IMG/VR virus record: IMGVR_UViG_3300033148_006306
Location: 1-52,786 of that record
Strand: one strand, 5' to 3'
DNA: 52,786 bases
From: a virus
Taxonomy: Duplodnaviria > Caudoviricetes
Within the stretch, counting starts at the first letter, position 1. Each line of letters opens with the position of its first letter. The position numbers were made by a program, and so were the translations under genes. The notes beneath the pieces were generated by a model. That model worked only from the letters and a program-made list of their open reading frames with translations. It was not told the DNA's origin and ran no database searches. Shown in pieces: positions 3,553 to 21,489 of this stretch.

Positions 3553-4092
3553 ATGAACAAACATAAATTTGAAAACCCAAAAGCAGACGTAATACTAAAA
3601 GATGAAGAGGCTGTGATATATCTAAACTACTTAAAAGACAAAGGCTATGATTCAATAGATGAATTGGTAAAAAAATATAAAAATGAAGTTCAAGAAACCA
3701 CAGATAGATTAAAATATTTACGCGTAAGTTATCGTATGGAGCAAGGAATCAACAATGACATCAAAGAGGTGTTATATGGATTAAGCAGCAGACTTTCTTT
3801 ATATAGGGTTTATGGCTACGAACTCCACATGCGAAGAGAGCGTTATGTACAAGTAGCTATCGCATATATTTCCAAGAATCAGGCAGATATAGAAAGAATA
3901 CATAAATTATTTGCCGATGTTATCAAAGATAAAGCAAACGAGTTAGCCTCAGAAGCAATAGAAGAAAGACAAAAGCTATGTGATGAAGATAACAGGCTAA
4001 CAAAGCTAGAATACAAACTAAAACTCTCTAAATGGGAAAAAACATTCTGGAGAAGAGTCTTTAAAAAATTGTTTATGAAAAAGAAAACTTAA
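3553..4092 (+). CDS. Hypothetical coiled-coil protein
   Basis: 179-aa ORF, AAGGA SD. Confidence 0.75.
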   Translation: MNKHKFENPKADVILKDEEAVIYLNYLKDKGYDSIDELVKKYKNEVQETTDRLKYLRVSYRMEQGINNDIKEVLYGLSSRLSLYRVYGYELHMRRERYVQVAIAYISKNQADIERIHKLFADVIKDKANELASEAIEERQKLCDEDNRLTKLEYKLKLSKWEKTFWRRVFKKLFMKKKT

Positions 4093-4130
4093 TATAAGTC
4101 AAGGACAAAGAAACCAAAATAGTATATAAT
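4089..4130 (+). promoter_or_regulatory. Promoter with FNR-type box at -41.5
   Basis: TTAATATAAGTCAA (4089-4102), 22 bp spacer, TATAAT (4125-4130). Confidence 0.7.
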
Positions 4131-4153
4131 TTGGGTAAAGATTAGGAGATATT

Positions 4154-4405
4154 ATGAAAAAGCAAGACATCGCAGATATTACAGATTTTTTAGATACTGA
4201 AATCTGTGATTATGATTTAGAATATGATTATGAGATAGTAGATGATGTGATGCTAGTAACATTTATAGGGCACTTTACAAGCAATAGTGAAATTGAAATG
4301 ACTTTTAGATGTGTTGGTGGAAATCCTGAGTTTTATGGACTATGCGATAGCTACATTCACGCTGATACTAGAAGCTTCTGGATTAACTTTATGGGGAGTT
4401 TATAG
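4154..4405 (+). CDS. Hypothetical acidic protein
   Basis: AGGAG SD, 83 aa. Confidence 0.7.
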   Translation: MKKQDIADITDFLDTEICDYDLEYDYEIVDDVMLVTFIGHFTSNSEIEMTFRCVGGNPEFYGLCDSYIHADTRSFWINFMGSL

Positions 4406-4406
4406 T

Positions 4407-4613
4407 ATGGTATATGTAGCAGTAGATTATGATGGCAGCGAGGTAATTGTTGGGTTGGAAACAAAATATAGTTATATGTTAGAAGATAAAAGAGTTTCGC
4501 TTCGTATGGGAGTGGTTGATGCAAAAGTAATAGCTAAAGGCTCAATAGAAAAACTAATAGGCAAAAAGATAACTTGGGAAGATGAGCCAGTAGAACTAAA
4601 GGAAGAGTTATGA
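4407..4613 (+). CDS. Hypothetical phage protein
   Basis: MVYVAVDYDG...IEKLIGKKITWEDEPVEL; start moved to ATG 4407 with GGAG SD. Confidence 0.7.
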   Translation: MVYVAVDYDGSEVIVGLETKYSYMLEDKRVSLRMGVVDAKVIAKGSIEKLIGKKITWEDEPVELKEEL

Positions 4614-4885
4614 GTGAAGTTGTTACAGAAGAAGATATATTAAGATTTGCTGACAACACAATAAGAATTACACGGGATATGCTAAGATGTGAAGACTTTA
4701 ATGGAGTAAGAGAGCGTTTAAGAACAGTAACGCTAGCAGGCTTTATATATGAAGACAGTTTAATAATGAGAGCTTCTTTATCTGAGCCTTTTATTGAGTT
4801 TTGTCAAGACACATTAGATTTTAGTATGGAAGAGATGTTAGAGCATGATAGCAGACTAATAGCACAAGCCAAATTGATCGCATAA
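4610..4885 (+). CDS. Hypothetical protein
   Basis: ATGA overlap with upstream gene. Confidence 0.7.
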   Translation: MSEVVTEEDILRFADNTIRITRDMLRCEDFNGVRERLRTVTLAGFIYEDSLIMRASLSEPFIEFCQDTLDFSMEEMLEHDSRLIAQAKLIA

Positions 4886-4905
4886 GAAATGAAGAGGAGT
4901 AGATA

Positions 4906-5274
4906 GTGTATAAAGAAAAGATAATAGCTTCATTAGATAAACTAGCAAATGGAGAACTAAAAGCTCTATGGGAGCGAATACAGTTTGATTTTGTACCAGA
5001 TATAGGAGAAAAAGCTATGCTAAGAGATGATATAAAAGATAAAGTTTCAGACATAATTACTTCAAACCTAACAGACCCCAGACTTGTAGTTCAAGAGCAA
5101 CACAACTGGGTAGAGTTAAATATGGATGCAGTAGATGTGACTGAGTTGAGTTGTTTTATTGAAGCAGAGTTTGACATAGACTTCATTAGTCCAGACGCAG
5201 TAAGCAAATGGAACACAGTAGCAGACATAGTAAACTACATAGAAGATCAATTAGAAGGAAAAGACAATGGATAG
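4906..5274 (+). CDS. Acyl-carrier-protein-like protein lacking the phosphopantetheine serine
   Basis: C-terminal ~80 aa align to AcpP; LNMDAVDVTEL corresponds to LGADSLDTVEL, followed by IEAEFDI and TVADIVNYI. Confidence 0.8.
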   Translation: MYKEKIIASLDKLANGELKALWERIQFDFVPDIGEKAMLRDDIKDKVSDIITSNLTDPRLVVQEQHNWVELNMDAVDVTELSCFIEAEFDIDFISPDAVSKWNTVADIVNYIEDQLEGKDNG

Positions 5275-5575
5275 TTTTATCAAAAAATTATTATATCCTA
5301 AGTATGTTATTATGAAAGGTATACAGATAGATAATAGGGCGATTATGTTTTTAGGGATAAATACTAAATTAACAAAAGAAAAACTTTATAACCATAATGT
5401 TTTGGAATTTTCTAATCATAGCAGTCAATATTATACATCAAATATTTACAAGAGAATTTATACATTTAAACAGCTTTTGAAGTGGTATAGATTATTAGGC
5501 AAAAAAGACTCTAAGTGCTTAGAATATAAATCATTTAAATGGCAACATATCAAAGAAAAAGGACTCCTAAAATGA
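5267..5575 (+). CDS. Hypothetical protein
   Basis: Overlapping ORF in operon. Confidence 0.6.
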   Translation: MDSFIKKLLYPKYVIMKGIQIDNRAIMFLGINTKLTKEKLYNHNVLEFSNHSSQYYTSNIYKRIYTFKQLLKWYRLLGKKDSKCLEYKSFKWQHIKEKGLLK

Positions 5576-5748
5576 AAACACACATAGTATCAGAAGTAGT
5601 AGATGGAAGAGTAATTGAAACACCACTATCAGAACAACAAGCAAAAAAACTATATAAAAAACTAAAAAAAGCCGGAGCAGACACAAAGCTATATAAACGA
5701 TGCACAGAGCAAGTAGAGAAACCAGATATGCCAAAAGCGGAAGTGTGA
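5572..5748 (+). CDS. Hypothetical protein
   Basis: ATG 5572 with AAGGA SD. Confidence 0.6.
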   Translation: MKTHIVSEVVDGRVIETPLSEQQAKKLYKKLKKAGADTKLYKRCTEQVEKPDMPKAEV

Positions 5749-5749
5749 G

Positions 5750-6148
5750 ATGAGCAGTGCAGTAGATCATAAAAAAGTAAAAATACAAGAAATAATATGC
5801 GGTTGTCTCAGAAGCAACACTGAAGCGATAGCTATAGACACAATAGCTAGTTTCATAATAGAGCAAGACTCGAAGCTAGAAGATGAGATAAAGTGGAAAA
5901 CCGCTCAGATAGAAAATATGAAACAAAAGATAGAAGAACTTGAATTTAACATGTCAGAACACAAAAGACTTCATAGTGAACTTAATGATATTCTTCATCC
6001 AAATGGGGATAAGCCTGAAAATCCATCTCTTTGTGATTTAGTTGCTTATGTACGGAAAGATTTAAAGAAACCAAAACTATCTGACTATACAATAGATGAA
6101 TTGGTAATGGAAATAGAGGACAGAGGTCAAGAAATTGGATTTATGTAA
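5750..6148 (+). CDS. Hypothetical protein
   Basis: 132-aa ORF in operon. Confidence 0.65.
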   Translation: MSSAVDHKKVKIQEIICGCLRSNTEAIAIDTIASFIIEQDSKLEDEIKWKTAQIENMKQKIEELEFNMSEHKRLHSELNDILHPNGDKPENPSLCDLVAYVRKDLKKPKLSDYTIDELVMEIEDRGQEIGFM

Positions 6149-6166
6149 TAAATGGGGGAAGAGATA

Positions 6167-6670
6167 ATGAGCACTATAACTTTTAAAGACACAAACGAAA
6201 CATTTGAGATAATGGCACAAGACAAACGATACTTAATTTGTCAAAGACCATATACTGTAGCAGAGAGAGCTTTGGAAATAAAAAAGCATGATGAAGGCTT
6301 CGAGGAAGCTCTGAAAGAAGAGTTTGAGACAGTAGCAAAACATTTTAACTATGACTATGATGAGTTTTGTGATGATGATGACCAACGCGACAGAATATGG
6401 GATAATTATAGCGATGAATGTGGAGAACAACCAGAGCCATTGAGCGAAGACACTTTCTGCTACACAATAGTAGACCTACAAGAAAAGAAAAGAGCACCTG
6501 ATAACTACTACTGCAAATTCAACTACGATAAAAAAGAAGAGTGTAAAAAGGCTCTAAAAGAACTAAACACAATCACAAAAGAATCTAAGGGCACTCCTTG
6601 CGAAGAGTATGAAATGCAACTATCAAGAAGAAGATCAATAGAACTCTCAGAGTATGAGATAAAGGAATAG
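6167..6670 (+). CDS. Hypothetical acidic protein
   Basis: ORF in operon; alternative start at 6152. Confidence 0.7.
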   Translation: MSTITFKDTNETFEIMAQDKRYLICQRPYTVAERALEIKKHDEGFEEALKEEFETVAKHFNYDYDEFCDDDDQRDRIWDNYSDECGEQPEPLSEDTFCYTIVDLQEKKRAPDNYYCKFNYDKKEECKKALKELNTITKESKGTPCEEYEMQLSRRRSIELSEYEIKE

Positions 6671-6672
6671 AG

Positions 6673-6897
6673 ATGAGTAAGAAGCTAATAGCAACAAGGG
6701 TATTTTATAGCTATCAAGGATTAAACAATCAAAATAGTATAATTTCACATGGCAGTGGAGCTATAGATGTTCCTGACGAAGAACTATTTGACTTTTTATT
6801 AAAAGGAGCACAAAATAGTAATAGTGAAGTAGCATCAATTCAGATTTTATCAATATGCCCCTTAGAATTAAAAGAAGTAAAAGATGCCGAAGAATAA
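6673..6897 (+). CDS. Hypothetical protein
   Basis: AAGGA SD. Confidence 0.6.
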   Translation: MSKKLIATRVFYSYQGLNNQNSIISHGSGAIDVPDEELFDFLLKGAQNSNSEVASIQILSICPLELKEVKDAEE

Positions 6898-7132
6898 TCT
6901 AAAACACGGTGTACTACTACTAATAACCCACCAAGAAGAACTAAACCAACTAAGTGAGGTGCAAGACGGTGTTGAGGTAGATGCTCTGTTCATAAACGAA
7001 CCATACTTAGTCTTCATGGATGAAGTGCTACACATAGTGCCAAGAAGCCAACTAGAAGACGGTCACTTTATGAGTGAAGTTAAACCAAGGAAGTTTAAGT
7101 CTTGGTATAAATCAATAAGAAGGAAGATGTAA
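6884..7132 (+). CDS. Hypothetical protein
   Basis: Overlapping ORF in operon. Confidence 0.6.
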   Translation: MPKNNLKHGVLLLITHQEELNQLSEVQDGVEVDALFINEPYLVFMDEVLHIVPRSQLEDGHFMSEVKPRKFKSWYKSIRRKM

Positions 7133-7342
7133 ATGCAGACAAGACTAGAAAGCTTCATAGAAGTGCTACATAACCAATGGTCAGGAATAGTTGTGGGATG
7201 GTGTATAGTTTTCTTTCTATTTCCATTGTTTGACCATTTGCAACAACACTGGGTAGCAACAATATCAACAATACTGTTTTTTATGTCCTCTTTTATGAGA
7301 ATGTGGATAATAAGAAGATACTTTAACGGGAGAGTGAAATGA
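7133..7342 (+). CDS. Small two-TM membrane protein (MQTRLESFIE...RRYFN type seen beside phage methyltransferases)
   Basis: Two hydrophobic segments and conserved-looking termini. Confidence 0.7.
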   Translation: MQTRLESFIEVLHNQWSGIVVGWCIVFFLFPLFDHLQQHWVATISTILFFMSSFMRMWIIRRYFNGRVK

Positions 7343-7863
7343 TAGAAAGTAAAAAAGTTTTATATTCAAAAGGCAATAGTGACGAGCAATACACACCTGC
7401 TTATGCAGTAGAGCCTATCTTAGAGTTTATTCCAAAAGATGCTATAGTTTGGTGTCCATTTGATAAAGCGGACAGTGAGTTTGTAAAACAGATACGCAAA
7501 AAAGGAAACACAGTAATAATAAGCCATATAGACGATGATAAATGCTTTTTTGAATACGAACCTGCCGAATGGGATATTTTAATCTCAAATCCACCTTTCA
7601 CAAACAAGCGTAAGTATTTTGAGAGAGCATTGAGTTTTAACAAACCTTTTGCTTTAGTAATGACAAATACTTGGCTAAACGACTCAGCACCAAAACAACT
7701 CTTCAAATACAAAGACTTACAACTACTGATGTTTGATAAAAGAATGAAATTTGTAAATCCTGATGGCAGAGCAAATAATAAAATAACTTTCAGCAGCAGC
7801 TACTACTGTTGGAACTTTTTACCAAAACAAATAATAATGAAAGAATTAGTGATAAAAACTTGA
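7339..7863 (+). CDS. Phage N6-adenine DNA methyltransferase
   Basis: DEQYTP, IVWCPFD and catalytic ISNPPF motifs. Confidence 0.85.
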   Translation: MIESKKVLYSKGNSDEQYTPAYAVEPILEFIPKDAIVWCPFDKADSEFVKQIRKKGNTVIISHIDDDKCFFEYEPAEWDILISNPPFTNKRKYFERALSFNKPFALVMTNTWLNDSAPKQLFKYKDLQLLMFDKRMKFVNPDGRANNKITFSSSYYCWNFLPKQIIMKELVIKT

Positions 7864-7901
7864 TATGAATCAAGGCAATAAAACCAAACCTATGTAATAA
7901 T
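7860..7901 (+). promoter_or_regulatory. Promoter with FNR-type box at -41.5
   Basis: TTGATATGAATCAA (7860-7873), 22 bp spacer, TGt-AATAAT (-10 at 7896-7901). Confidence 0.65.
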
Positions 7902-7918
7902 ACACAAAAGGATAAAAA

Positions 7919-8131
7919 GTGAAACTCTGGGAAATATATTTTCATAGCGTAATGTGTTTTGAGAAAGGTCTTTATGTCTTACAGTCAGAAAATGAACCAA
8001 CAGAAGAAGAATGTCTAAAAGCACTATATGAAAACACATACACCGGAACAATCTACTTCGAGTCAGTAGAAGAGATAACCGAAAAAGAACTAAGATATAA
8101 AAAATACACACTAATGCAGAAGGATAATTAA
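7919..8131 (+). CDS. Hypothetical protein
   Basis: GTG start with AAGGA SD. Confidence 0.6.
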   Translation: MKLWEIYFHSVMCFEKGLYVLQSENEPTEEECLKALYENTYTGTIYFESVEEITEKELRYKKYTLMQKDN

Positions 8132-8317
8132 ATGGGTACTGTAAAAACTAAACAAAAATATGAATGTGACTCTTGTGGAAAAGTTGGCGTATGGTCTAAA
8201 GGATGGCTACATAGAACAATATATCATAGAAGATGGGATGAATTAATAACTGTTTGCAGCGAGAAATGTGCAGATAAATATGATGGTAAGAAGAACAAAG
8301 AAAATGCAAAAGTGTAA
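8132..8317 (+). CDS. Small zinc-finger-like protein
   Basis: CDSC...CSEKC. Confidence 0.65.
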   Translation: MGTVKTKQKYECDSCGKVGVWSKGWLHRTIYHRRWDELITVCSEKCADKYDGKKNKENAKV

Positions 8318-8489
8318 CGGTAGATTTTGTGAGTATAAAGATGTATGTCTTCATGCTATTGAAGCACAAAAGCTCATACACATAAAAGATAAATGGATAA
8401 AAGTAGAACTATGCAGAACAGGATTACTGAGTGTAGATGGTAAAAAGTACCTAAGACTACCATTCACAGACCTGCTACTAAAGGACTAA
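8304..8489 (+). CDS. Small Cys-containing protein
   Basis: MQKCNGRFCEYKDVC; start moved to ATG 8304. Confidence 0.55.
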   Translation: MQKCNGRFCEYKDVCLHAIEAQKLIHIKDKWIKVELCRTGLLSVDGKKYLRLPFTDLLLKD

Positions 8490-8490
8490 A

Positions 8491-8664
8491 ATGCTAAAGC
8501 ATGAAAAACGCAACATAAAAGAAAAATACAACACTATAAAAGCAAGAGCAATCGCAGGAGAATATGATACGCAAATAATCATAACTCTAATAATAGCAGC
8601 AGTTCTAGGAAGTATTAGTGCCGTATATGTATGGGAATGGTTTAAAAGATGGTTACAACAATAA
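8491..8664 (+). CDS. Small membrane protein (57 aa, not in ORF track)
   Basis: AAGGA SD; single TM segment IIITLIIAAVLGSISAVYVW. Confidence 0.6.
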   Translation: MLKHEKRNIKEKYNTIKARAIAGEYDTQIIITLIIAAVLGSISAVYVWEWFKRWLQQ

Positions 8665-8843
8665 GCTGTTCATACATCTCTGATGGTAAGGTAATAGCTC
8701 AAAATGAAGATGCTACCTATGTCTATAAGCACAATCTTTCAGAAGAGGGAACTCTAAAGCTTCTAAAGTTACTAGGTAAAACACCGGAGATAAACGAAGA
8801 ACACTGGATAGTAGAGTGGGAAAAGAGTGCTTGTGGTTTTTAG
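8649..8843 (+). CDS. Hypothetical protein
   Basis: Overlapping ORF in operon. Confidence 0.55.
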   Translation: MVTTISCSYISDGKVIAQNEDATYVYKHNLSEEGTLKLLKLLGKTPEINEEHWIVEWEKSACGF

Positions 8844-8876
8844 AGCAGAAGTGATATAATACAAAAAAGGAAAAAC

Positions 8877-9221
8877 ATGATAATCTACAGTAAAAACGAA
8901 AACTACAAAATATGGGCAAACACAAAAGATTTTACATTTCATATCCAGATGGAAGGTCAAGAGATAGAAGAAGAAGGCTATCAAACATCAGGACTAGCAA
9001 TAGAACAAGCGGAACAAAACATACCAAAAGAAGTAGCGATAACTCTAACAAAATGCTCAACACCTAAAACAATGAAGTGTCCTCTGTGTGAAGACTGCAT
9101 AAGAAACCAACCCTCAACACACCAACTAGAAGACTATGAACAGTTCAACCCAAAGAAAGCACCAATGCGACCTTGGATTTGTGATGGCTATGAACATAAA
9201 GACCAAAAGAGTCTACTATGA
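8877..9221 (+). CDS. Hypothetical protein with C-terminal Cys-rich domain
   Basis: TGATATAAT promoter at 8852-8860, AAGGA SD. Confidence 0.7.
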   Translation: MIIYSKNENYKIWANTKDFTFHIQMEGQEIEEEGYQTSGLAIEQAEQNIPKEVAITLTKCSTPKTMKCPLCEDCIRNQPSTHQLEDYEQFNPKKAPMRPWICDGYEHKDQKSLL

Positions 9222-9451
9222 AAACAGACTACGCATACTGCTTAGACGAACATACCTGTATCCACAGAAGAGGGTGCAGAAGATGGATAGGAAACTACCC
9301 CAATGAAGAAGTAAAAGAACTTACAAACAGTAACAGAGATGAATACATAAACGACAAAGACTGTGTACCAAATTACAGTGATGTAAACTGCGAGAACGAC
9401 TTTGATATGCTAGATAGATATAGACTAAGTGATGGGAGTGAGATGAAATGA
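9218..9451 (+). CDS. Small Cys-rich protein
   Basis: DYAYC...C...GCRR. Confidence 0.65.
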   Translation: MKTDYAYCLDEHTCIHRRGCRRWIGNYPNEEVKELTNSNRDEYINDKDCVPNYSDVNCENDFDMLDRYRLSDGSEMK

Positions 9452-9897
9452 TAGCATTGTTTCTTGATGTTGACGGAGTGTTGAATCAATATAGAAGAAG
9501 TGAGTGTATTCGTAGACACAAGATAGATTATGATTTTTGTTTTACACCTTTCAAAAAGAAAGTTATGAGATTATCCAAGCTTGTAAAAAAATACAACTTA
9601 GATGTTTATGTGTTTAGTGCATGGACAGAAGAAAACTTACAGCCACATTTGCCTTTTAAGCTATGTGGAGACACTGGAAAGTGGATTGAAAATGTTAACG
9701 AGGCATCAAATAAATATAAACATTCAATACTTGTAGACGATGAAATATCTCCAAAGATGGGCAAAGAGAATGGATATGGAGGAGAACAAGTCAATTTAAA
9801 AGAAGATATTGTAACCTATCAGCCTCACTATAACTTTGGTTTAGTTTTGAAAGATTTTAAAAAACTTGATAAAATACTAAAAAGGCTAAACGAATGA
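9448..9897 (+). CDS. HAD-superfamily protein (HAD_SAK_2-like)
   Basis: LFLDVDGVLN motif I and ILVDD motif. Confidence 0.8.
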   Translation: MIALFLDVDGVLNQYRRSECIRRHKIDYDFCFTPFKKKVMRLSKLVKKYNLDVYVFSAWTEENLQPHLPFKLCGDTGKWIENVNEASNKYKHSILVDDEISPKMGKENGYGGEQVNLKEDIVTYQPHYNFGLVLKDFKKLDKILKRLNE

Positions 9898-10091
9898 TAC
9901 AAAACTACACAGTAATGCCAGAACTAATCTTTTCTGCTTTTTGTGCTATACTTTCACTAATCGCAATAACAAGGATTTTACTTGAAAGTAGCACTAATAA
10001 GCATAGTTTCAACACTGTTTACCTTATGGATAAGCTGGATAAGCTACGAAGTTTTTACAATGTCAACAAGTATCGCTCTTATAGACTATAA
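9894..10091 (+). CDS. Hypothetical membrane protein
   Basis: One hydrophobic segment; ATGA overlap. Confidence 0.4.
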   Translation: MIQNYTVMPELIFSAFCAILSLIAITRILLESSTNKHSFNTVYLMDKLDKLRSFYNVNKYRSYRL

Positions 10092-10133
10092 AATAAACTC
10101 ACTAAATCCTGTACTTCAAGACCTCAGTGAAAG

Positions 10134-10487
10134 ATGAAATCTAAACACGGGAACACAAAAACTTTTAGAATAATAAAGGGAGAGAAAGTTCCCTTTGATA
10201 GTTTCAAAGAAGCAAATCGTTTTGACCAACTATATCTACTAGCAAAAGCTAAAAAGATTTCACAGCTTACTATCCAACCAAAATACCTATTAATGGAAGC
10301 CCAAACACACAACGGTTTCACATACAAAAGCGTTTCATACATAGCAGACTTCAGATATATAAAAAACGGAAAAACAATCGTAGAAGATGTAAAATCAGAT
10401 CACACAAAGAAACTAGCCACATATAGAGTTAAGATAAAATGGTTTCTATCTCTCTATGGAAAAGATCTAACTTTTATAGAAACTTGA
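10134..10487 (+). CDS. DUF1064 family PD-(D/E)XK nuclease-like protein
   Basis: FDSFKEANRF, LTIQPKY, YIADFRY, VEDVKS. Confidence 0.88.
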   Translation: MKSKHGNTKTFRIIKGEKVPFDSFKEANRFDQLYLLAKAKKISQLTIQPKYLLMEAQTHNGFTYKSVSYIADFRYIKNGKTIVEDVKSDHTKKLATYRVKIKWFLSLYGKDLTFIET

Positions 10488-10524
10488 TATAGGTCAAGAA
10501 GATACTTTTGGAATATGTTATACT
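10484..10524 (+). promoter_or_regulatory. Promoter with FNR-type box driving the sORF / ncRNA / tRNA-like region
   Basis: TTGATATAGGTCAA (10484-10497), 21 bp spacer, TGt-TATACT (-10 at 10519-10524). Confidence 0.7.
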
Positions 10525-10573
10525 TATACTTTCAATTCGATAAAAAGATATAAATTCAAAAGAAGGAGAGACT

Positions 10574-10627
10574 GTGAAATTCAAACCAATCGGTTATTTT
10601 CCAACTATAAATAAAAAAAGAAAATAA
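10574..10627 (+). CDS. Putative 17-aa leader peptide MKFKPIGYFPTINKKRK
   Basis: GTG start with strong AGAAGGAG SD. Confidence 0.4.
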   Translation: MKFKPIGYFPTINKKRK

Positions 10628-10631
10628 TCTG

Positions 10632-11006
10632 GTCATCGTGCTGCAAAAAATGAAGTCCAACTTAGATGTTGGTCAAAGAAAACAAGTTGTAGGTAGCCTT
10701 AAAATGAAGATATTAGGCTTTGTAAGTAAACCAAACATTCTCCTGCAAAACACTAAGACTTTTTATGAAGCATCTATTCTAAGTAGTTGTTTCTCCGAGA
10801 GTTTCTCGGTTTGTGTCAAATCCTTAAATCCAGAAGTCTTTTCTTCTGGATTGTTTATGACATAAGAACTTTTGATGGAGCAGACAGACATACCAAGATG
10901 TTGAGAGACGGCAACCACTTAGATTAACTTCAATGGCTAGACTTGAAGAAACTACTAACGAGGATACAAATCAAGCAATGCTCTCAGTCTGTTTCACAAA
11001 GAGTTT
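10632..11006 (+). ncRNA. Putative structured non-coding RNA, two multibranch domains
   Basis: At least ten nested helices visible by eye (see findings). Confidence 0.55.
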
Positions 11007-11014
11007 AAGCATAC

Positions 11015-11139
11015 GCACCATTAGCTCAGTTGGTTAGAGCAGATTGTAGGTCTGAAAAACCTCAAATACACAAGATGATACTAATTTCATCGTATTAGAA
11101 AACAGTCACAGGTCACTGGTTCGAGTCCAGTATGGTGAG
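11015..11139 (+). tRNA. Non-canonical tRNA-like RNA with a branched insert in the anticodon arm (contains a CU-GAA-AA Phe-type loop)
   Basis: Acceptor CACCAT/ATGGTG, D-arm GCTC-AGTTGGTTA-GAGC, T-arm ACTGG-TTCGAGT-CCAGT; 1-72 mismatch; no encoded CCA. Confidence 0.75.
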
Positions 11140-11164
11140 ACAGGCAAACTAAGAGGTTAACCTA

Positions 11165-11183
11165 GGAGCTATCTAATAGCTCC
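11165..11183 (+). terminator. Hairpin after the tRNA-like element
   Basis: GGAGCTA-tctaa-TAGCTCC; no U-tract. Confidence 0.35.
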
Positions 11184-11211
11184 GTCATATCACAAACAAA
11201 ACAAATTTCCT

Positions 11212-11248
11212 TTGACTTATGTTAATATCCTACATTTTATGATATAAT
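11212..11248 (+). promoter_or_regulatory. Head operon promoter with box over the -35
   Basis: TTGACTTATGTTAA (11212-11225), 17 bp spacer, TGa-TATAAT (-10 at 11243-11248). Confidence 0.65.
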
Positions 11249-11281
11249 ACTCATAATGCAAATTTCAAGTAGGAAAGTTTA

Positions 11282-11497
11282 ATGGCACAAGCAACCATAG
11301 ATTCAGAAATCGCTGACCTAACAACCAGAATCTCACTACTTGATGACGAAATAAAAGAACAGCAACATCTTTCAGAACTAGAAGAGGGCGGTGGCAACGC
11401 TAGATTCCGTACACAGTTCGCAGACATCGGAAAACTGTATGACAGACGAGATACTTTAAATACAAGGCTACAAGCATTACTAAGGAGTCAGATTTGA
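11282..11497 (+). CDS. Head-tail joining protein, gpW-like
   Basis: 71-aa helix-hairpin-helix pattern directly upstream of portal. Confidence 0.65.
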   Translation: MAQATIDSEIADLTTRISLLDDEIKEQQHLSELEEGGGNARFRTQFADIGKLYDRRDTLNTRLQALLRSQI

Positions 11498-13056
11498 ACT
11501 TAGGTTATGGAAACTTCTTCAGCACTTATGCTCCTGGTGCTTCAACAACAACAGCAGGAAAACCTCTTTTTGATGGAAACATAGATTTAAAAGCTTCAAC
11601 TTTTCCTAAAAAAATAAGACAACAAACTCACTGGCTAAATGTAAACACCACAGATGTTCCAACCATAGTAAGAACAAATACCAACAAAACTATAGGTATT
11701 TCAGTAAGTACACAAGTAGAAACAAAGTCAAAAACTTTCAACAATCAAGCAGAATCCCTAATAGAAAAACATGGCAAAAAAGGAGTGGGTGAATTAACAG
11801 GAAGACACCACTTCAACAAAGCCCTAAGAATAATGTCAGACTTTGATTTACTAGACGGTGGCTTCATTATAAGACACCACTATAGCCCAATATGGGAAAT
11901 ACCGTATAAGTATGAACTTGTTGGTGTAGATATGATAGACATCACAAAAACAACTCATTCTTTTGAGGCAACAAGAACAGAAACCACTATAAACGGTTTA
12001 GTGAGAAATAAGTGGGGGCAGATAACTCATGTATGGCTCTACACAACAGAAAACAAAACAACTTCAACTAAAGTTCCATATGATAATCTAACATACTATT
12101 CAGACACTTGGATAAGTATAGACCAGCAAACAGCAGCAAGTAAGCTGGTGTCAATGCTAAAAACTCTTGACCAATCGTTACAATATGGAACAGCGACTCT
12201 AAACTCGGCAATAGAAGCAGCAAAAGCAGGAGCATATTTAAAATCACAAGCGTACAATGAAGTAATGCAAGTTGTATCTGATACAATACAAGCTAATACT
12301 ACTGGTAAAGATGCTAAATCAATAGCAACAGCAATAGATTTAGTGAAGCCTATAATGAGACAACTATCAAACTTGGGCGTAAAACCACATGGTGTGACTC
12401 CTATTGCTAGTGGCGATGATGTAATTTTTGACACCTCGAAAACAGACAGCGAGTATAAATCACTAAATGACAATACTGAGATGAAGATGGCTTCATCACT
12501 TGGTTATTCAGACATAGGAATATACAAAAAAGCTTCCGATGCAAACTACTCATCAATAAAAGCCACGATAGAGATGGATCAGATAACAGCAGATGTAAGA
12601 TTTGATGATTTAAAAAATGTAGTGTTACAAGAAATACACACAAGACTGATACGAGTCGGGATACAAAAAGGATTAATAAAAGAAAGAGTAAAATATTGGA
12701 GCAATCCCTATGACTATAACAAGTTTAGATATCTAAGACAAAACAAAATAGACATCGAACCTGCAAAAAATGCAATGGCTAATAAAACAAATATAGCACT
12801 AGAAATAGACACTCCTGCAAATATAATAGAAACAAAATACGGAGTGAAATACGAAGATTGGCTTGAGAAAGCACATCAACAAAAACTACTTGCATTGGGT
12901 TATGAGGCAAAAATAGAAAAAGCTCGCAAAGAAGCATTTGAAAAGGAAGGGATAGAGCTACCTGAAGATGCTAACAAAGAAAAGCTGTCAAATATAGAAA
13001 AACAAAATAAGCAACTAATAACACTCCAAAAAAGTGTAAGCCTCCATGAGCTATAA
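11494..13056 (+). CDS. Portal protein, lambda family
   Basis: 520 aa; INGLVRNKWGQITHVW, DANYSSIKA, IEPAKNAMA. Confidence 0.85.
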   Translation: MNLGYGNFFSTYAPGASTTTAGKPLFDGNIDLKASTFPKKIRQQTHWLNVNTTDVPTIVRTNTNKTIGISVSTQVETKSKTFNNQAESLIEKHGKKGVGELTGRHHFNKALRIMSDFDLLDGGFIIRHHYSPIWEIPYKYELVGVDMIDITKTTHSFEATRTETTINGLVRNKWGQITHVWLYTTENKTTSTKVPYDNLTYYSDTWISIDQQTAASKLVSMLKTLDQSLQYGTATLNSAIEAAKAGAYLKSQAYNEVMQVVSDTIQANTTGKDAKSIATAIDLVKPIMRQLSNLGVKPHGVTPIASGDDVIFDTSKTDSEYKSLNDNTEMKMASSLGYSDIGIYKKASDANYSSIKATIEMDQITADVRFDDLKNVVLQEIHTRLIRVGIQKGLIKERVKYWSNPYDYNKFRYLRQNKIDIEPAKNAMANKTNIALEIDTPANIIETKYGVKYEDWLEKAHQQKLLALGYEAKIEKARKEAFEKEGIELPEDANKEKLSNIEKQNKQLITLQKSVSLHEL

Positions 13057-15519: not shown

Positions 15520-16635
15520 ATGAATAACTTAGTAATAAATTCAGACATTTCACAATGGGGGTTTAGTTCAAGATGGCTGTCAGGTAAACTATCTGAAATG
15601 ACAGGAGACCTTGAAGTAGATATATCATCATATGGTGGAGATGTCTTTGAAGGTATTGACATGTACAATCAACTAAGAAGATACTCAAAAGACAAAGGAC
15701 ATGTGACAACTATCGCAGGTTCAAAAGTAATGAGTATCGCTTCACTCTTACTATTAGCAGGAGACACCAGAAAAGCCCACAGTAATTCAACAATAATGAT
15801 TCATAAAGCTTGGACTTGGTTGGCAGGAAATTCAGATGAATTAATTGCAGAGTCTAAAGTTCTAGGTGGAATAGATATTATCTTAGCAAAACAATATGGA
15901 AAATATATGGATAACTCCCATGAAGAGATAATGGAAGTTATGTCAAATGAGGGATGGTATATTGGACAAGAGCAAATAGAAGAAACAAATTTTATAGATG
16001 CTTTTATAGTTGAGTCTGATGAGGTGGAAGTATCCGCAAAATCAAACTATAAAAAAGCAATGGCTAGATTTAGTGCAAAAGCCCAAGAAGATGATGTTAA
16101 GCCAAACTTTGATGAGGTAAAAGCATCAATAATTGAATGTAATGACGGAAAATGTCCCACTGCCTCGCAAGGCGGTAAAATAGCGAATAAAATTCAAGGA
16201 GCAGACATGGATATTGTGTTTGACAAAGAAAATCTTGACAAAACGGAAGCACTCTTTAATGCGTTAGTGAAAAATAAAACTAAAGCAGAAAAAGATACAG
16301 CGGAAATACAGTTAAGTTTAAATACAGCGACAACTGCTTTGGAAGCTAAAACTGAAGAAATGACGAAGTTAGTAGCTAGTCATAAAACAGAGCTTTCTGA
16401 GGCAGAAGGAAAATTAGATAGTTTTAAAACAGAGACTATCGCAAGAGTGCAGGAAGGAATCTCATACAAAGCAACAGCAGATGTAATTGTTAATGCGATT
16501 AAAGCTGATGATTCTGAAAAAGCAACAAGTTTAATCATGGCTCATGTTGAGTCCGATGGTGCAACAAGACAAACCACAAGTGAACCGGTAAAAGGTACAT
16601 GGGATGGACATTCTTTTAAGAGAGGTAAAAAATAA
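15520..16635 (+). CDS. ClpP-like head maturation protease with scaffold tail
   Basis: ISSYGGDVFEG, SIASLLLLAG, IMIHKAW. Confidence 0.9.
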   Translation: MNNLVINSDISQWGFSSRWLSGKLSEMTGDLEVDISSYGGDVFEGIDMYNQLRRYSKDKGHVTTIAGSKVMSIASLLLLAGDTRKAHSNSTIMIHKAWTWLAGNSDELIAESKVLGGIDIILAKQYGKYMDNSHEEIMEVMSNEGWYIGQEQIEETNFIDAFIVESDEVEVSAKSNYKKAMARFSAKAQEDDVKPNFDEVKASIIECNDGKCPTASQGGKIANKIQGADMDIVFDKENLDKTEALFNALVKNKTKAEKDTAEIQLSLNTATTALEAKTEEMTKLVASHKTELSEAEGKLDSFKTETIARVQEGISYKATADVIVNAIKADDSEKATSLIMAHVESDGATRQTTSEPVKGTWDGHSFKRGKK

Positions 16636-17280: not shown

Positions 17281-18306
17281 ATGATAACATTAGATATATT
17301 TAAGCAAGATGCTTTTTCAGCAGTAGAACTGACTAATTTTGTTAGTAAGCAACCATTTATTCCATCTCTTTTGAGAGATATGAACTTGTTTGCAGACAAA
17401 CCGGTGAGAACAACAACAATATGGGTAGAATTAAAAGATGGAAAAATCGCTTTAATCCCTACTTCAGAACGTGGTGCTCCAATCTTTCAAAGTGAAAAAC
17501 AGAAAAGAAGAGCTGTATCACTGCAAACAGTAAGACTTGCAAAAGGTGATAGAATCACATCTTCTGAACTTCAAGACATTCGTGCTGAAGGTGAAGCAGA
17601 AGAACTTAAAGAAGTTCAAGTAGAAGTTACTGACAGACTAGACATCTTAAGTGGCGACATGGATTTAACGCATGAAAACTTATTTCTTGGAGCAGTTCAA
17701 GGTATTCTAGTTGATGCAGATGGTTCAACTGTTATATATAATTTCTTTACTGAATTTAATGTATCACAAGCTAGTGAAGTTGATTTTGACCTAGACAATG
17801 CTACTCCTGCTTCTGGTGCATTGCTAACGCTATGTATGGGAATTCAAAGAAGTATGCAACGTGCAGGTCAAGGTGCATATTTACCTACTACTGAGGTTGT
17901 TGCACTTGTTGGTGATGCTTTCTGGGATGGTCTTATTGCTCATACAGAAGTTAAAGGTGCATATGACAACTGGGTTGCTGCACAAGCTTTCTCTAATGAC
18001 AAGAAAGCTTTTGGAGAGTTTTACTGGGGTGGAATCAACTGGATTAATTACCGTGGTACGGATGATAATTCGACTGTAGCTATTGGCACAGACAAAGCTA
18101 AGTTTTTCCCTCGTGGAGCAAGAGGTGTGTTTGAAAACGCATTAGCACCATCAGAATCTTTTGAGTTTGTTAACAAAAAAGGTTTACCTAGATATGCAAT
18201 GGTTGTTCCAGACTTGCTGAGAAATGAGTATGTTGACGTAGAAATAAAATCTTATCCACTACCATACTGTACTCGCCCAGAGATGTTACTAAGAGGTAAG
18301 AGGTAA
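17281..18306 (+). CDS. Major capsid protein, lambda gpE family
   Basis: 341 aa; DAFSAVELT, LIPTSERGAP, SYPLPYCTRPEML. Confidence 0.92.
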   Translation: MITLDIFKQDAFSAVELTNFVSKQPFIPSLLRDMNLFADKPVRTTTIWVELKDGKIALIPTSERGAPIFQSEKQKRRAVSLQTVRLAKGDRITSSELQDIRAEGEAEELKEVQVEVTDRLDILSGDMDLTHENLFLGAVQGILVDADGSTVIYNFFTEFNVSQASEVDFDLDNATPASGALLTLCMGIQRSMQRAGQGAYLPTTEVVALVGDAFWDGLIAHTEVKGAYDNWVAAQAFSNDKKAFGEFYWGGINWINYRGTDDNSTVAIGTDKAKFFPRGARGVFENALAPSESFEFVNKKGLPRYAMVVPDLLRNEYVDVEIKSYPLPYCTRPEMLLRGKR

Positions 18307-20295: not shown

Positions 20296-21489
20296 ATGTC
20301 AGGTTTTTTAACTACAAGAGTCTTACTCACAAGAGAAGATGCAGCAGGAGACATTCAATCAAACCCTGTATGTATAGAGTATCTTTCTGAGTCATTTGAC
20401 TTAAAAGAGGAACAGGCTTCAGAAGAAGTAAATCTTCTAGGTTCAGGCGGTGATGCTTCACCAATGGCGTTTGGAACATCAAGTTTCACTGGTTCATTAG
20501 GACATGTCATCAGCATTGACAACTCTCCAATCGTACTTACTCACGTTCTTGGTGCAGCACTTACATCAGCAAACGCTACAGCAGAAGTTTGGACAGCAGA
20601 TACAGCATATGATGTAGGTGACTTAGCAAATGGCGTGGCAAACGCAAAACATACATTTGTTTGTGTGTCTGTAACGGGTACGGCAAAAAGCCATGCTACA
20701 ACAGAGCCAACGCTTGAAGCTGATCCTAATGATGATAGAAATGTAAAAGTAGTAGATAATGAGGTTACATGGGTAGTTATGCCTAAGCTAATCACTGATA
20801 CTTATGAACTTACTCAAATTATGCCAACTTTCACAATAGAGTATGAACTTGAAGATCCAAGTGCTAATAAATTCTATAAAAGATTCAGTGGCGTAAGAAT
20901 GAACTCACTTCCGATTGCAATGACAGGTGGAACAATCTCATTAAAAGCTTCTATAGACTTCTTAGGTGTTTCGGCACTAGATAGTGAAGATGATGACTGG
21001 GTAGAACCACTTGCAGACATCACAGGTGCAAAAATCGTACCAAACTTCAAAGACTACTACTCTTATGAAGATTGTTTAGTAAAAGTAGATACAGTAGACC
21101 TATGTGAAACAGAATCTGTAAACATAGATTTAAACAGAAATGTAACAGTAGATGATGCAGTAAATGGCTGTAAAATTTCAAATGTTGGTATTCCAAATGC
21201 TAATGGCTCTATGAGTCGTGTTTTTGAAACAGCAGATTTTAACAACGCTAAAACTCACACTGATTTTGCATTGCAATTCGCATTTACAAAACTAAACGGA
21301 TGTGCTTTAACACTAGACTATCCTCTAGTAAAACCAAAACTAGCTGATCCAATCCAATCAATAGACAAACAAGTAATGATGTCTGTAGATATTTCAGCAT
21401 ATGGTGTATCAGGAACAAAATCTGTTCAAGCATCAGTAACATACCCTGGTCTTTACGACTCAACAGGTACATTAGTCGGAGCTTATTAA
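20296..21489 (+). CDS. Major tail tube protein
   Basis: Position and beta-rich profile; internal WTADTAYDVGD...VVDNEVTW insert. Confidence 0.8.
   Translation: MSGFLTTRVLLTREDAAGDIQSNPVCIEYLSESFDLKEEQASEEVNLLGSGGDASPMAFGTSSFTGSLGHVISIDNSPIVLTHVLGAALTSANATAEVWTADTAYDVGDLANGVANAKHTFVCVSVTGTAKSHATTEPTLEADPNDDRNVKVVDNEVTWVVMPKLITDTYELTQIMPTFTIEYELEDPSANKFYKRFSGVRMNSLPIAMTGGTISLKASIDFLGVSALDSEDDDWVEPLADITGAKIVPNFKDYYSYEDCLVKVDTVDLCETESVNIDLNRNVTVDDAVNGCKISNVGIPNANGSMSRVFETADFNNAKTHTDFALQFAFTKLNGCALTLDYPLVKPKLADPIQSIDKQVMMSVDISAYGVSGTKSVQASVTYPGLYDSTGTLVGAY

What the first reader, a model, noticed from the sequence alone, without database searches (positions are those of the whole stretch)
11015..11139. 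tRNA scaffold whose anticodon arm is replaced by a branched two-hairpin domain
Seen: the D-arm, T-arm and six acceptor pairs are textbook. After position 26, a 6-bp stem (GATTGT 11042-11047 with ACAGTC 11102-11107) closes a 54-nt insert. The insert holds hairpin 1 AGGT-CTGAAAA-ACCT, a canonical 7-nt Phe(GAA) anticodon loop, and hairpin 2 AATAC..GATGA-TACTAATT-TCATC-GTATT. There is a G1-A72 mismatch and no encoded CCA. The insert is too short for a group I intron and is itself well paired, so it does not look like decay. Inference: a tRNA mimic that probably cannot decode. It could be a decoy for anticodon nucleases (PrrC/RloC type), synthetases or stringent-response sensors, or an RNase P/Z processing handle that releases the upstream ncRNA.
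Basis: partly seen in the sequence, partly recalled or inferred. Interest (0 to 1): 0.8.

Follow-up and report, generated by a model that had tools for sequence, protein, structure and literature searches.

The report
Phage tRNA gene with replaced anticodon arm
A marine phage carries one tRNA-derived gene whose upper half is intact but whose anticodon arm is replaced by a branched 66-68-base domain, so it cannot decode as written; whether it is a working tRNA-like RNA, an insert-bearing tRNA or a dead gene is still open.

Summary
Rfam's tRNA model matches 11015-11139 at 34.6 bits (cut-off 29), with 68 nt standing in for the 17 anticodon-arm positions. Plain ARAGORN finds nothing.

The body is closest to ordinary phage tRNA-Arg(tct) and tRNA-Met genes. 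No single excision restores a canonical anticodon arm. The "perfect Phe arm" needs two excisions, and 98 of 500 shuffles do as well. The insert's folding energy is not exceptional (z about -1.5). A 6-bp closing stem arises in 0.7% of shuffles and an anticodon-like hairpin in 3.9%.

No homologue carrying the insert was found in any collection I could reach. The nearest relative's contig lacks the element (weak evidence).

The gene sits in a roughly 800-nt non-coding cassette with a structured leader (z -2.8) and a duplicated promoter-like 12-mer.

My best reading, at 0.4, is a non-decoding tRNA-like RNA whose top half acts as a processing and stability scaffold. Rivals are a recently disabled tRNA gene (0.33) and a Lak-type "enigmatic intron" tRNA (0.15). 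The decoy idea is untested.

The parts
10854..10865 (+). Promoter-like 12-mer TTTATGACATAA (TG-n-CATAAG, extended -10 type), just after a terminator-like hairpin at 10827-10852
   Evidence: One of only two exact copies in the window; the other is at 11236-11247. Promoter function is inferred.
10866..11006 (+). Structured leader: a long-range helix enclosing inner helices, ending 8 nt before the tRNA-like 5' end
   Evidence: The fold of 10855-11014 gives -34.5 kcal/mol, z -2.82, with 0 of 200 shuffles as stable. No convincing ORF.
11015..11041 (+). Acceptor 5' strand (11015-11021), T8 A9, D arm (11024-11040), A26
   Evidence: Rfam alignment with posterior probabilities near 1. The 20-nt D arm is identical to that of many tRNAs.
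11042..11047 (+). 5' strand of the 6-bp closing stem (GATTGT)
   Evidence: Pairs with 11102-11107 in the minimum-energy fold. Pair probability about 0.5. Arises by chance in 0.675% of shuffles.
11048..11062 (+). Hairpin 1: 4-bp stem with the 7-nt loop CTGAAAA, an anticodon-loop-like GAA
   Evidence: Pair probability 0.3-0.5. A hairpin of this kind occurs in 3.9% of shuffles.
11065..11096 (+). Hairpin 2: 5 bp, a 4-nt bulge, 5 bp, and an 8-nt loop
   Evidence: Pair probability 0.74-1.0, the only robust helix of the insert.
11102..11107 (+). 3' strand of the closing stem (ACAGTC)
11108..11114 (+). Connector ACAGGTC. The Rfam model takes AGGTC as the variable loop, so AC is 2 nt more than a class I tRNA has.
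   Evidence: alignment.
11115..11139 (+). T arm (11115-11131), acceptor 3' strand (11132-11138), discriminator G (11139); no CCA follows
   Evidence: The T arm is identical to that of the tRNA-Arg(tct) of phage PQ867847.1.
11165..11183 (+). 8-bp hairpin downstream with no T run. It could be the end of the transcription unit or a processing site.
   Evidence: The fold of 11140-11260 gives z -2.33, with 3 of 200 shuffles as stable. Function is inferred.
11236..11247 (+). Second exact copy of the 12-mer (TTTATGATATAA, giving TG-n-TATAAT), 35 nt before the ATG at 11282 that opens the head-gene block
   Evidence: Promoter function is inferred.

Best explanation
The locus is a tRNA-derived gene that, as written, makes a non-decoding tRNA-like RNA. 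Its top half (acceptor stem, D arm, T arm and all elbow bases) is intact and most resembles phage tRNA-Arg(UCU) and tRNA-Met genes. In place of the 17-nt anticodon arm there are 66-68 nt that can form a 6-bp stem bearing two hairpins.

The gene is the only tRNA-like gene on the contig. It lies in a roughly 800-nt non-coding cassette between the accessory genes and the head genes. The cassette has a promoter-like motif, a 140-nt structured leader and a closing hairpin.

Inferred mechanism, not shown: the cassette is transcribed as one unit. RNase P cuts at 11015 and frees the leader. The 3' end is trimmed at 11139 and CCA is added, as for any tRNA whose top half is intact. The result is a stable RNA of about 128 nt. 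In it the tRNA top half serves as a processing and stability scaffold, and the branched domain is the part that acts, or once acted.

It cannot pair with a codon on the ribosome. The only anticodon-like loop sits on a side branch about 6 bp beyond where the anticodon stem should start.
For: - The tRNA body is real and undamaged.
- The body has close ordinary relatives: 94% identity over both halves to the tRNA-Arg(tct) of phage PQ867847.1, with the same T arm and discriminator, and a compensatory change at pair 7-66.
- There is no canonical anticodon arm, and no single deletion restores one.
- A closing stem exactly at the ends of the replaced segment, plus an anticodon-like hairpin inside it, is rare in shuffles: 0.675%, 3.9%, and 0.01% jointly.
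- The surroundings look like an RNA cassette. The leader has z -2.82, there is a downstream hairpin, and the two exact copies of a promoter-like 12-mer lie only here.
- Elsewhere on the contig the genes abut or overlap, so 800 nt of non-coding DNA stands out.
- Insert-bearing tRNA genes recur in phages and can be conserved. ARAGORN in intron mode flagged 59 of 392 predictions in loci L001-L038, though those loci were chosen for holding at least one. One insert family shows compensatory changes in 13 of 30 pairs.
- The Lak megaphage papers report identical inserts across cohorts (passages read).
Against: - I saw no homologue with the insert. None turned up in IMG/VR. In INPHARED, 0 of 1749 matching records cover 80% or more of the element. 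None appeared in 401 Campylobacterota genomes or in 7 portal-related loci. So there is no covariation and no sign of purifying selection.
- The nearest relative I could see is a 645-nt contig of run X1, about 87% identical over 11198-11509. It does not run on into the element. That evidence is weak: the far side of the joint is only 20 nt.
- The insert's folding energy is ordinary.
- G1.A72, the lost A20 and the absence of CCA fit decay as well as they fit function.
- No expression data exist (one search lists no RNA holder).
- The promoter and processing steps are inferred from textbook enzyme specificity, not shown.
Confidence: 0.4

Rival explanations
1. It is a recently disabled tRNA gene, that is, a pseudogene. 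An accessory phage tRNA, probably Arg(UCU)-like, had its anticodon arm wrecked by an insertion, replacement or inversion. The RNA, if made, does nothing.
For: - The closest relatives of the body are ordinary tRNAs without the insert.
- The element is absent from the nearest relative's contig, and tRNA carriage in this phage group is sporadic: 1 of 4 related IMG/VR records has a tRNA, an ordinary tRNA-Met.
- G1.A72 stands where the relative has G1.T72. T20 stands where the Arg relatives have A. No CCA is encoded.
- The insert's fold is not exceptional.
- Three mutually incompatible 'ancestries' can each be read into the insert, which is what noise looks like: Phe by two deletions, a His-like 13-mer, and the reverse complement of an Arg(UCU) loop at 11095-11101 (273 of 200000 shuffles).
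Against: - The top half shows no decay at any structural position.
- A random replacement rarely closes on itself with 6 bp (0.675%).
- If the stem is the ancestral anticodon stem, the 2 extra connector bases and the missing U33 still need further events.
- Compact phage genomes seldom keep 800 nt of dead DNA carrying promoter-like and structured parts.
Confidence: 0.33
2. It is an insert-bearing tRNA of the kind reported as 'enigmatic introns' in Lak megaphages. The extra sequence is removed by an unknown route and a decoding tRNA results.
For: - This class exists. The Lak phage papers report phage tRNAs with conserved introns, among them a tRNA-Phe(GAA) (passages read).
- I found many in IMG/VR tRNA arrays.
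- ARAGORN in intron mode does call this element, as tRNA-Ser(aga) with a 47-nt intron, or with -ss as tRNA-Phe(gaa) with a 49-nt intron flanked by TAG on both sides.
Against: - Both ARAGORN products are non-canonical. One has a 6-bp stem. The other has A at position 33 and a 7-nt connector.
- A single deletion restores a canonical arm in 16 of 24 other insert-bearing sequences, against 48 of 4800 shuffles, but not here. Three of those 16 are really two adjacent tRNAs.
- Rfam drops the whole arm rather than aligning it around an insertion.
- I see no bulge-helix-bulge at either junction (my inspection).
- No splicing endonuclease or RNA ligase family appears among the 67 of 93 ORFs scanned against Pfam. 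The contig is only 62% complete.
- The insert shows no resemblance, by eye, to the 28/29 insert family.
Confidence: 0.15
3. It is a decoy, the first reader's reading and a special case of the best explanation. The scaffold displays an anticodon stem-loop look-alike to soak up a host anticodon nuclease or another tRNA-binding factor.
For: - Hairpin 1 has a 7-nt loop with T at the second place and a purine at the sixth.
- An overlapping alternative hairpin, CAGA-TTGTAGG-TCTG at 11040-11054, would display a GTA loop. ARAGORN picked it in one in-silico product.
- A weak match to the HAD domain of RNA-repair proteins lies 1.1 kb upstream at 9448-9897: PF18143, 24.9 bits, below its 27.5 cut-off, with the motif DVDGV present.
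- That phage tRNAs counter tRNA-cutting defences is known.
Against: - Nothing ties this RNA to any nuclease.
- Hairpin 1 is only 4 bp, has a pair probability of 0.3-0.5, and such a hairpin arises in 3.9% of shuffles.
- No defence or anti-defence gene was recognised nearby. PADLOC was not run.
- No paper in the searches describes such a decoy.
Confidence: 0.08
4. It is an assembly artefact. The conserved D-arm and T-arm words, shared by thousands of genomes, caused a false join in the metagenome assembly.
For: In run X1 five contigs of unrelated tRNAs (Val, Ile) lie on exactly these words (joints 11040-11110).
Against: - The two acceptor strands flanking the insert are complementary in 6 of 7 positions, which a join of two different tRNAs would not give.
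- The flanks on both sides belong to one phage with collinear genes.
- The relative's contig diverges at 11198, not inside the tRNA.
Confidence: 0.03

Closest known systems
Phage tRNA genes with 'enigmatic introns' (Lak megaphages; Devoto et al. 2019, PMC6784885 and preprint 10.1101/356790; passages read, supplements closed)
   Same: A phage tRNA body with tens of extra bases between the D and T arms. Bacterial tRNA finders fail on them. The removal mechanism is unknown. A Phe(GAA) case is reported there.
   Different: Those sit in large tRNA arrays of 540-kb phages, and identical copies recur across cohorts. This one is a single gene in a lambda-like phage, with no conserved copy seen. Here a single excision does not rebuild a canonical arm. 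I could not compare sequences because Supplementary Table 6 is closed.
The 28/29 insert family seen here in IMG/VR tRNA arrays (L001, L002, L007, L014, L030, L032, L034, L038; alignment A3)
   Same: The extra domain starts two bases into the 5' strand of the anticodon stem. That is the same point as the 5-nt piece 11044-11048 in my two-deletion reading.
   Different: That family is one contiguous insert of 48-57 nt. It shows compensatory changes (13 of 30 pairs), and a single excision restores Asn(GTT), His(GTG) and other arms. The present insert shares no sequence with it by eye and needs two excisions, which is no better than chance.
YrlA / bacterial Y RNAs (Chen et al. 2014, PMC4201824; passages read)
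   Same: Non-decoding RNAs that mimic the tRNA D arm, T arm and acceptor stem. They are handled by tRNA enzymes such as RNase P, the CCA-adding enzyme, DusA and TruB, and are also found in phages.
   Different: In YrlA the RNA ends lie on the 'anticodon' side and form the Ro60-binding stem, and the acceptor is a closed stem-loop. YrlA is encoded next to a Ro60 gene. Here the ends are in the acceptor stem, no Ro60/TROVE family was hit, and no Rfam family besides tRNA matches.
tmRNA tRNA-like domain
   Same: An acceptor stem and T arm are kept, and the anticodon arm is replaced by other RNA.
   Different: tmRNA is several times longer, with pseudoknots and a tag reading frame, and needs G3.U70 for alanine (recalled). 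Here pair 3-70 is A-T, and ARAGORN's tmRNA search finds nothing.
Engineered 'tRNA scaffold' for expressing RNAs, and tRNA-like processing handles such as mascRNA or the herpesvirus tRNA-miRNA units (all recalled, not read here)
   Same: The architecture is the same: a tRNA top half gives RNase P/Z processing and stability to a cargo placed where the anticodon arm was, or releases a neighbouring RNA.
   Different: Those are man-made or eukaryotic. No natural phage example was found in the searches.

Membership tests
Canonical tRNA (Rfam RF00005) | 7-bp acceptor stem, D arm and T arm with the conserved elbow bases | tested here: met
   34.6 bits against a cut-off of 29. Six of 7 acceptor pairs plus G.A. 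All elbow bases are present.
Canonical tRNA (Rfam RF00005) | 5-bp anticodon stem with a 7-nt loop (U33, purine 37) directly after position 26 and before a 4-5-nt variable loop | tested here: not met
   The model's 17 arm positions are replaced by 68 nt. Plain ARAGORN finds no tRNA.
Insert-bearing phage tRNA (Lak-type 'intron') | tRNA body with extra sequence in the anticodon region | tested here: met
Insert-bearing phage tRNA (Lak-type 'intron') | Removing one contiguous piece gives a canonical anticodon arm | tested here: not met
   There are 0 strict solutions. All relaxed ones have A33 and a 7-nt connector. Comparators: 16 of 24 sequences have a solution, against 48 of 4800 shuffles.
Insert-bearing phage tRNA (Lak-type 'intron') | The insert is conserved among related phages | tested here: inconclusive
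   No copy was found anywhere. The nearest relative's contig lacks it (20-nt side only). The closest relative by portal (P0002, 88%) could not be fetched.
Group I intron in a bacterial tRNA anticodon loop | Self-splicing fold of about 200 nt or more that matches the Rfam intron model | tested here: not met
   The insert is 47-68 nt. No intron or ribozyme family matched at gathering score or at E up to 10.
Archaeal/eukaryal protein-spliced tRNA intron | Bulge-helix-bulge at the two junctions, and a splicing endonuclease available | tested here: not met
   I could draw no 3-nt bulge / 4-bp helix / 3-nt bulge at either junction (inspection). The phage's kin are bacterial. No endonuclease or ligase family appears among the 67 of 93 ORFs scanned.
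tmRNA | tRNA-like domain with G3.U70, pseudoknots and a tag reading frame | tested here: not met
   ARAGORN tmRNA search finds nothing. No Rfam tmRNA hit. Pair 3-70 is A-T.
YrlA / Y RNA | tRNA-like domain with RNA ends on the anticodon side, next to a Ro60 (TROVE) gene | tested here: not met
   The ends lie in the acceptor stem. No TROVE hit. No Rfam hit.
Anticodon-nuclease decoy (no defined family) | Binds, or is cut by, a host anticodon nuclease and protects host tRNA | not testable with these tools
   Needs bench work. Only the loop's shape is seen.

The most novel reading that the evidence does not exclude
A small lambda-like marine phage encodes a natural 'tRNA scaffold' RNA. It would be made from its own cassette together with a structured leader. 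An intact tRNA top half recruits RNase P, 3' trimming and CCA addition. The top half then presents one of two mutually exclusive anticodon-stem-loop look-alikes, a GAA loop at 11048-11062 or a GTA loop at 11040-11054, as bait for a host tRNA-cutting defence or a tRNA-modifying enzyme. This would be a non-decoding counter-defence RNA, a class not yet described.
Probability: 0.1. Interest if true: 0.8.

Novelty: new variant of a known kind. Interest (0 to 1): 0.42.

Why it matters
Phage tRNAs are now known to matter in the contest with host defences that cut tRNAs. Insert-bearing phage tRNAs were reported in 2019, and none of my literature searches turned up a removal mechanism for them.

If this element is a working RNA, it would show that a phage can use the tRNA top half purely as a processing and stability module for another small RNA domain. 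That principle is so far known from engineered RNAs, bacterial Y RNAs and eukaryotic systems.

If it is a dead gene, it still serves as a warning. A single sequence can be read as Phe, Ser, Tyr, His-like or inverted Arg depending on how one cuts it.

The by-product may be the more useful result. It is a covariation-supported insert family placed two bases into the anticodon stem of Asn, His and other tRNAs in large phages, and it makes the 'enigmatic intron' question directly testable.

Tried and rejected
**Homologue hunts that found nothing useful**
- An exact 31-mer of the element in IMG/VR gave 0 hits.
- A 24-mer of the 3' half hit only two ordinary tRNA-Asn genes.
- An architecture pattern with the GAA loop gave one unrelated hit, L053.
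- A closing-stem pattern gave 0 hits.
- The hairpin-1 arm with 1-61 nt before the T loop gave 0 hits.
- blastn of 501 nt against INPHARED gave no match.
- The portal protein alone in IMG/VR gave no relatives. A portal alignment gave 4 IMG/VR loci, 2 short JGI loci and 1 Campylobacterota MAG locus, all at 51-59% identity. None has the element by blastn or Rfam.
- 401 Campylobacterota genomes matched only generic tRNA halves.

**Sequencing runs.** One DNA holder was listed, with a 0.05 share of words, and no RNA holder was listed. This says nothing about expression.

**Readings rejected**
- Ribozyme or known RNA family in the insert: nothing matched, even at E up to 10.
- Mobile repeat: the insert has no other copy in the window.
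- Class II-like fold, with the Phe arm carrying a 5-nt bulge and hairpin 2 as a long variable arm: 6 kcal/mol worse than the minimum-energy fold, with about 0 probability for its defining pairs.
- 'Perfect tRNA-Phe by two deletions' (11044-11048 and 11064-11109): ARAGORN accepts the product, but 98 of 500 shuffles also yield some strict solution. I do not count it as evidence.
- attP remnant: both tRNA halves are present and no integrase family was hit.

**Not possible or not done**
- The look-up of encoding contigs is marked closed and I did not call it, so the contig of portal P0002 (88% identity) was out of reach.
- tRNAscan-SE and R-scape are not on hand.
- Supplementary Table 6 of the Lak paper, which holds the intron sequences, is closed.
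- PADLOC was not run.
Full report
**What the window is.** The window is one IMG/VR virus record of 52,786 bp, judged 62% complete, with 34% G+C. It has a lambda-like head block:
- a Nu1-like small terminase at 432-1181 and a gpA-type large terminase at 1526-3496;
- a portal at 11494-13056 (phrog_21; PF05136 is precomputed for its relatives);
- a ClpP-type protease at 15520-16635, an E-type major capsid protein at 17281-18306 and a tail tube protein at 20296-21489.

About 8 kb of small accessory genes lie between the terminase and the portal. Kin are bacterial. The best named relative is Thiohalocapsa phage LS06-2018-MD03, whose portal is 35.7% identical. One GTDB hit is a Campylobacterota MAG at 54%. 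A marine metagenome run holds a relative.

**The observation.** Rfam's tRNA model matches 11015-11139 on the + strand at 34.6 bits against a cut-off of 29. The acceptor, D and T parts align at posterior probabilities near 1, and 68 nt stand in place of the 17 anticodon-arm positions. It is the only tRNA match in the record. Plain ARAGORN finds nothing.

**How solid the insert's structure is.** It is less solid than it looks.
- Energy z-scores are -1.63 for the whole element, and -1.51 for the 66-nt insert and -1.71 for the inner 54 nt.
- In the ensemble the 6-bp stem has probability about 0.5, hairpin 1 has 0.3-0.5, and only hairpin 2 is firm at 0.74-1.0.
- On the other hand, a 6-bp stem that closes the replaced segment exactly at its ends arises in only 0.675% of 20000 shuffles. 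A hairpin with an anticodon-like 7-nt loop arises in 3.9%, and both together in 0.01%. These tests were devised after seeing the sequence.

**Where the body comes from.** Against 50,697 phage records, 1749 match the two conserved halves and none covers 80% or more of the element, so none has the insert. The best are ordinary tRNAs:
- tRNA-Arg(tct) of the marine phage PQ867847.1. It is 94% identical over both halves, with the same T arm and discriminator G. It has G1.T72 where this element has G1.A72, and pair 7-66 is changed on both sides.
- tRNA-Arg(tct) of Salmonella phage As2 and its kin.
- tRNA-Met(cat) of Enterococcus phages.

So the G1.A72 'mismatch' sits where a close relative already has a wobble pair. 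The A at position 20 that the Arg relatives share is T here.

**Can it be an intron-bearing tRNA?** ARAGORN in intron mode calls it tRNA-Ser(aga), with a 47-nt intron and a 6-bp anticodon stem. With another option it calls it tRNA-Phe(gaa), with a 49-nt intron flanked by TAG on both sides and A at position 33.

An exhaustive scan of single deletions finds no product with a 5-bp stem, U33, a purine at 37 and a 4-5-nt variable loop. I applied the same scan to 24 other insert-bearing sequences from IMG/VR. It finds a solution in 16, against 48 of 4800 shuffles. Three of those 16 are really two adjacent tRNAs.

Removing two pieces, 11044-11048 and 11064-11109, gives a textbook tRNA-Phe arm that ARAGORN accepts. 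But 98 of 500 shuffles of the insert also give some strict two-deletion solution. I therefore treat it as coincidence.

I could draw no bulge-helix-bulge at either junction. No intron or ribozyme family matches. None of the 67 of 93 ORFs scanned against Pfam hits a splicing endonuclease or RNA ligase.

**Other echoes in the insert.** Positions 11042-11054 match the anticodon arm of Campylobacterota tRNA-His at 11 of 13 places. Positions 11095-11101 are the exact reverse complement of an Arg(UCU)-type anticodon loop. Only 273 of 200,000 shuffles give that at either end in either orientation. This is post hoc, though Arg(tct) was the type independently suggested by the body. It could mean that the DNA between the two stem arms was once inverted. 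I cannot test this, and it does not give a canonical tRNA either.

**Relatives at the locus.** Seven portal-related loci at 51-59% identity have no tRNA-like element there. One of them has an ordinary tRNA-Met about 1.6 kb upstream of the small gene that precedes its portal.

In run X1 a 645-nt contig follows the window from 11509 down to 11198, at about 87% identity, and then leaves it. Only a 20-nt piece lies at 10989-11008, and by my arithmetic about 96 other letters lie between. So the nearest visible relative lacks the element or has replaced it. The short side makes this weak evidence. The other 'joints' at 11040-11110 in that run are unrelated Val and Ile tRNAs lying on the conserved words.

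**The surroundings.** From 10488 to 11281 there is no convincing gene. The 75-codon GTG frame at 10638-10865 runs through two terminator-like hairpins and has no family hit.
- The 160 nt just before the element fold into a long-range helix with z -2.82, and 0 of 200 shuffles are as stable.
- An 8-bp hairpin follows at 11165-11183.
- The 12-mer TTTATGAYATAA occurs exactly twice in the window, at 10854 and 11236, both on the + strand. Including one-mismatch copies, the count is 5, not above chance (10 of 100 shuffles reach it). The second copy gives a TG-n-TATAAT box 35 nt before the ATG at 11282, the small gene that precedes the portal.
- I read this as a self-contained RNA cassette of promoter-like box, leader, tRNA-like RNA and hairpin, placed just ahead of the late promoter. 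The relative's contig diverges at 11198, near the cassette's right edge.

**What is known.** Devoto et al. (passages read) report tRNAs with 'enigmatic', highly conserved introns in Lak megaphages, including a Phe(GAA) case. They state that such introns had not been reported in phages before. My searches found no later account of a mechanism.

[quoted passage not shown] But their ends lie on the other side of the fold and they accompany a Ro60 gene, which is absent here.

No paper in the searches describes a phage tRNA scaffold with a replaced anticodon arm or a tRNA-shaped nuclease decoy. T4's stable RNAs C and D, the engineered tRNA scaffold, and mascRNA-type handles I know only from recall.

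**Verdict.** The element is certainly tRNA-derived, and as encoded it cannot decode. Beyond that the evidence is thin, because it rests on a single sequence.

| Reading | Weight |
|---|---|
| Working non-decoding tRNA-like RNA, with the top half as processing and stability scaffold and the leader released by RNase P | 0.40 |
| Recently disabled accessory tRNA | 0.33 |
| Lak-type insert that is somehow removed | 0.15 |
| Assembly artefact | 0.03 |

The specific decoy reading is a sub-case of the first, at about 0.08-0.10. I class the element as a new variant of a known but unexplained kind, with moderate interest.

Noticed in passing
L001:10379-10507(-), L001:10136-10266(-), L002:303-433(-), L030:11840-11970(+), L032:2305-2433(-), L034:879-1009(+), L007:1381-1511(-), L014:7321-7451(+), L038:10648-10776(+); also L006, L009, L010, L022, L033, L037: A homologous, structured insert of 39-57 nt sits two or three bases into the 5' strand of the anticodon stem (after position 28, in L009 after 29) in tRNA genes of large phages and roughly 98-kb phages. 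A single excision restores arms with GTT (Asn), GTG (His), TTG and TGG loops. In the 9-sequence alignment A3, 13 of 30 predicted pairs keep pairing through changes on both sides. These may be the 'enigmatic introns' of Lak-like phages.
   Followed up: partly
L001:10136-10266(-) and L030:11840-11970(+): Members of the same insert family whose restored anticodon loop would have 8 bases rather than 7, so the strict single-deletion test fails. This could be an odd decoder or a decayed copy.
   Followed up: no
L004, L008, L015, L017, L019, L023, L025, L029, L031: One 110-111-nt insert-bearing tRNA-like gene recurs almost unchanged on nine contigs of 31-77 kb from one sample set. ARAGORN's calls for it disagree between the two variants: SeC(tca) for the 110-nt form and Leu(caa) for the 111-nt form. 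It was too short for my deletion scan.
   Followed up: no
window 10855-11014: A 160-nt non-coding stretch folds into a long-range helix (z -2.82, 0 of 200 shuffles as stable). No Rfam match at E up to 10 lies inside it. It could be a small RNA or a leader of the tRNA-like gene.
   Followed up: partly
window 10854-10865 and 11236-11247: These are the only two exact copies of TTTATGAYATAA in the window. Both are on the + strand and they bracket the RNA cassette. The second forms an extended -10 box before the small gene that precedes the portal.
   Followed up: partly
window 9448-9897 (+): A 149-aa protein with an N-terminal DVDGV motif gives a sub-threshold match to the HAD domain of 'Swiss Army Knife' RNA-repair proteins (PF18143, 24.9 bits against 27.5) and matches phrog_1818. 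It lies 1.1 kb upstream of the tRNA-like gene.
   Followed up: no
window 3553-10487: About 7 kb of small accessory genes are wedged between the large terminase and the portal, which is unusual for a lambda-like head block. They include an acyl-carrier-protein-like gene (4906-5274), a D12-class DNA methyltransferase (7339-7863) and a DUF1064 / resolvase-like gene (10134-10487).
   Followed up: no
window 11042-11054 and 11095-11101: The first stretch matches the anticodon arm of Campylobacterota tRNA-His(gtg) at 11 of 13 places. The second is the reverse complement of an Arg(UCU)-type anticodon loop (273 of 200000 shuffles). It may be a trace of an inversion between the stem arms.
   Followed up: partly
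L039:4069-4144 (+): A related phage (portal 59% identical) carries an ordinary tRNA-Met(cat) upstream of its head genes. The region ahead of the portal therefore seems to be a place where this phage group picks up tRNA genes.
   Followed up: partly
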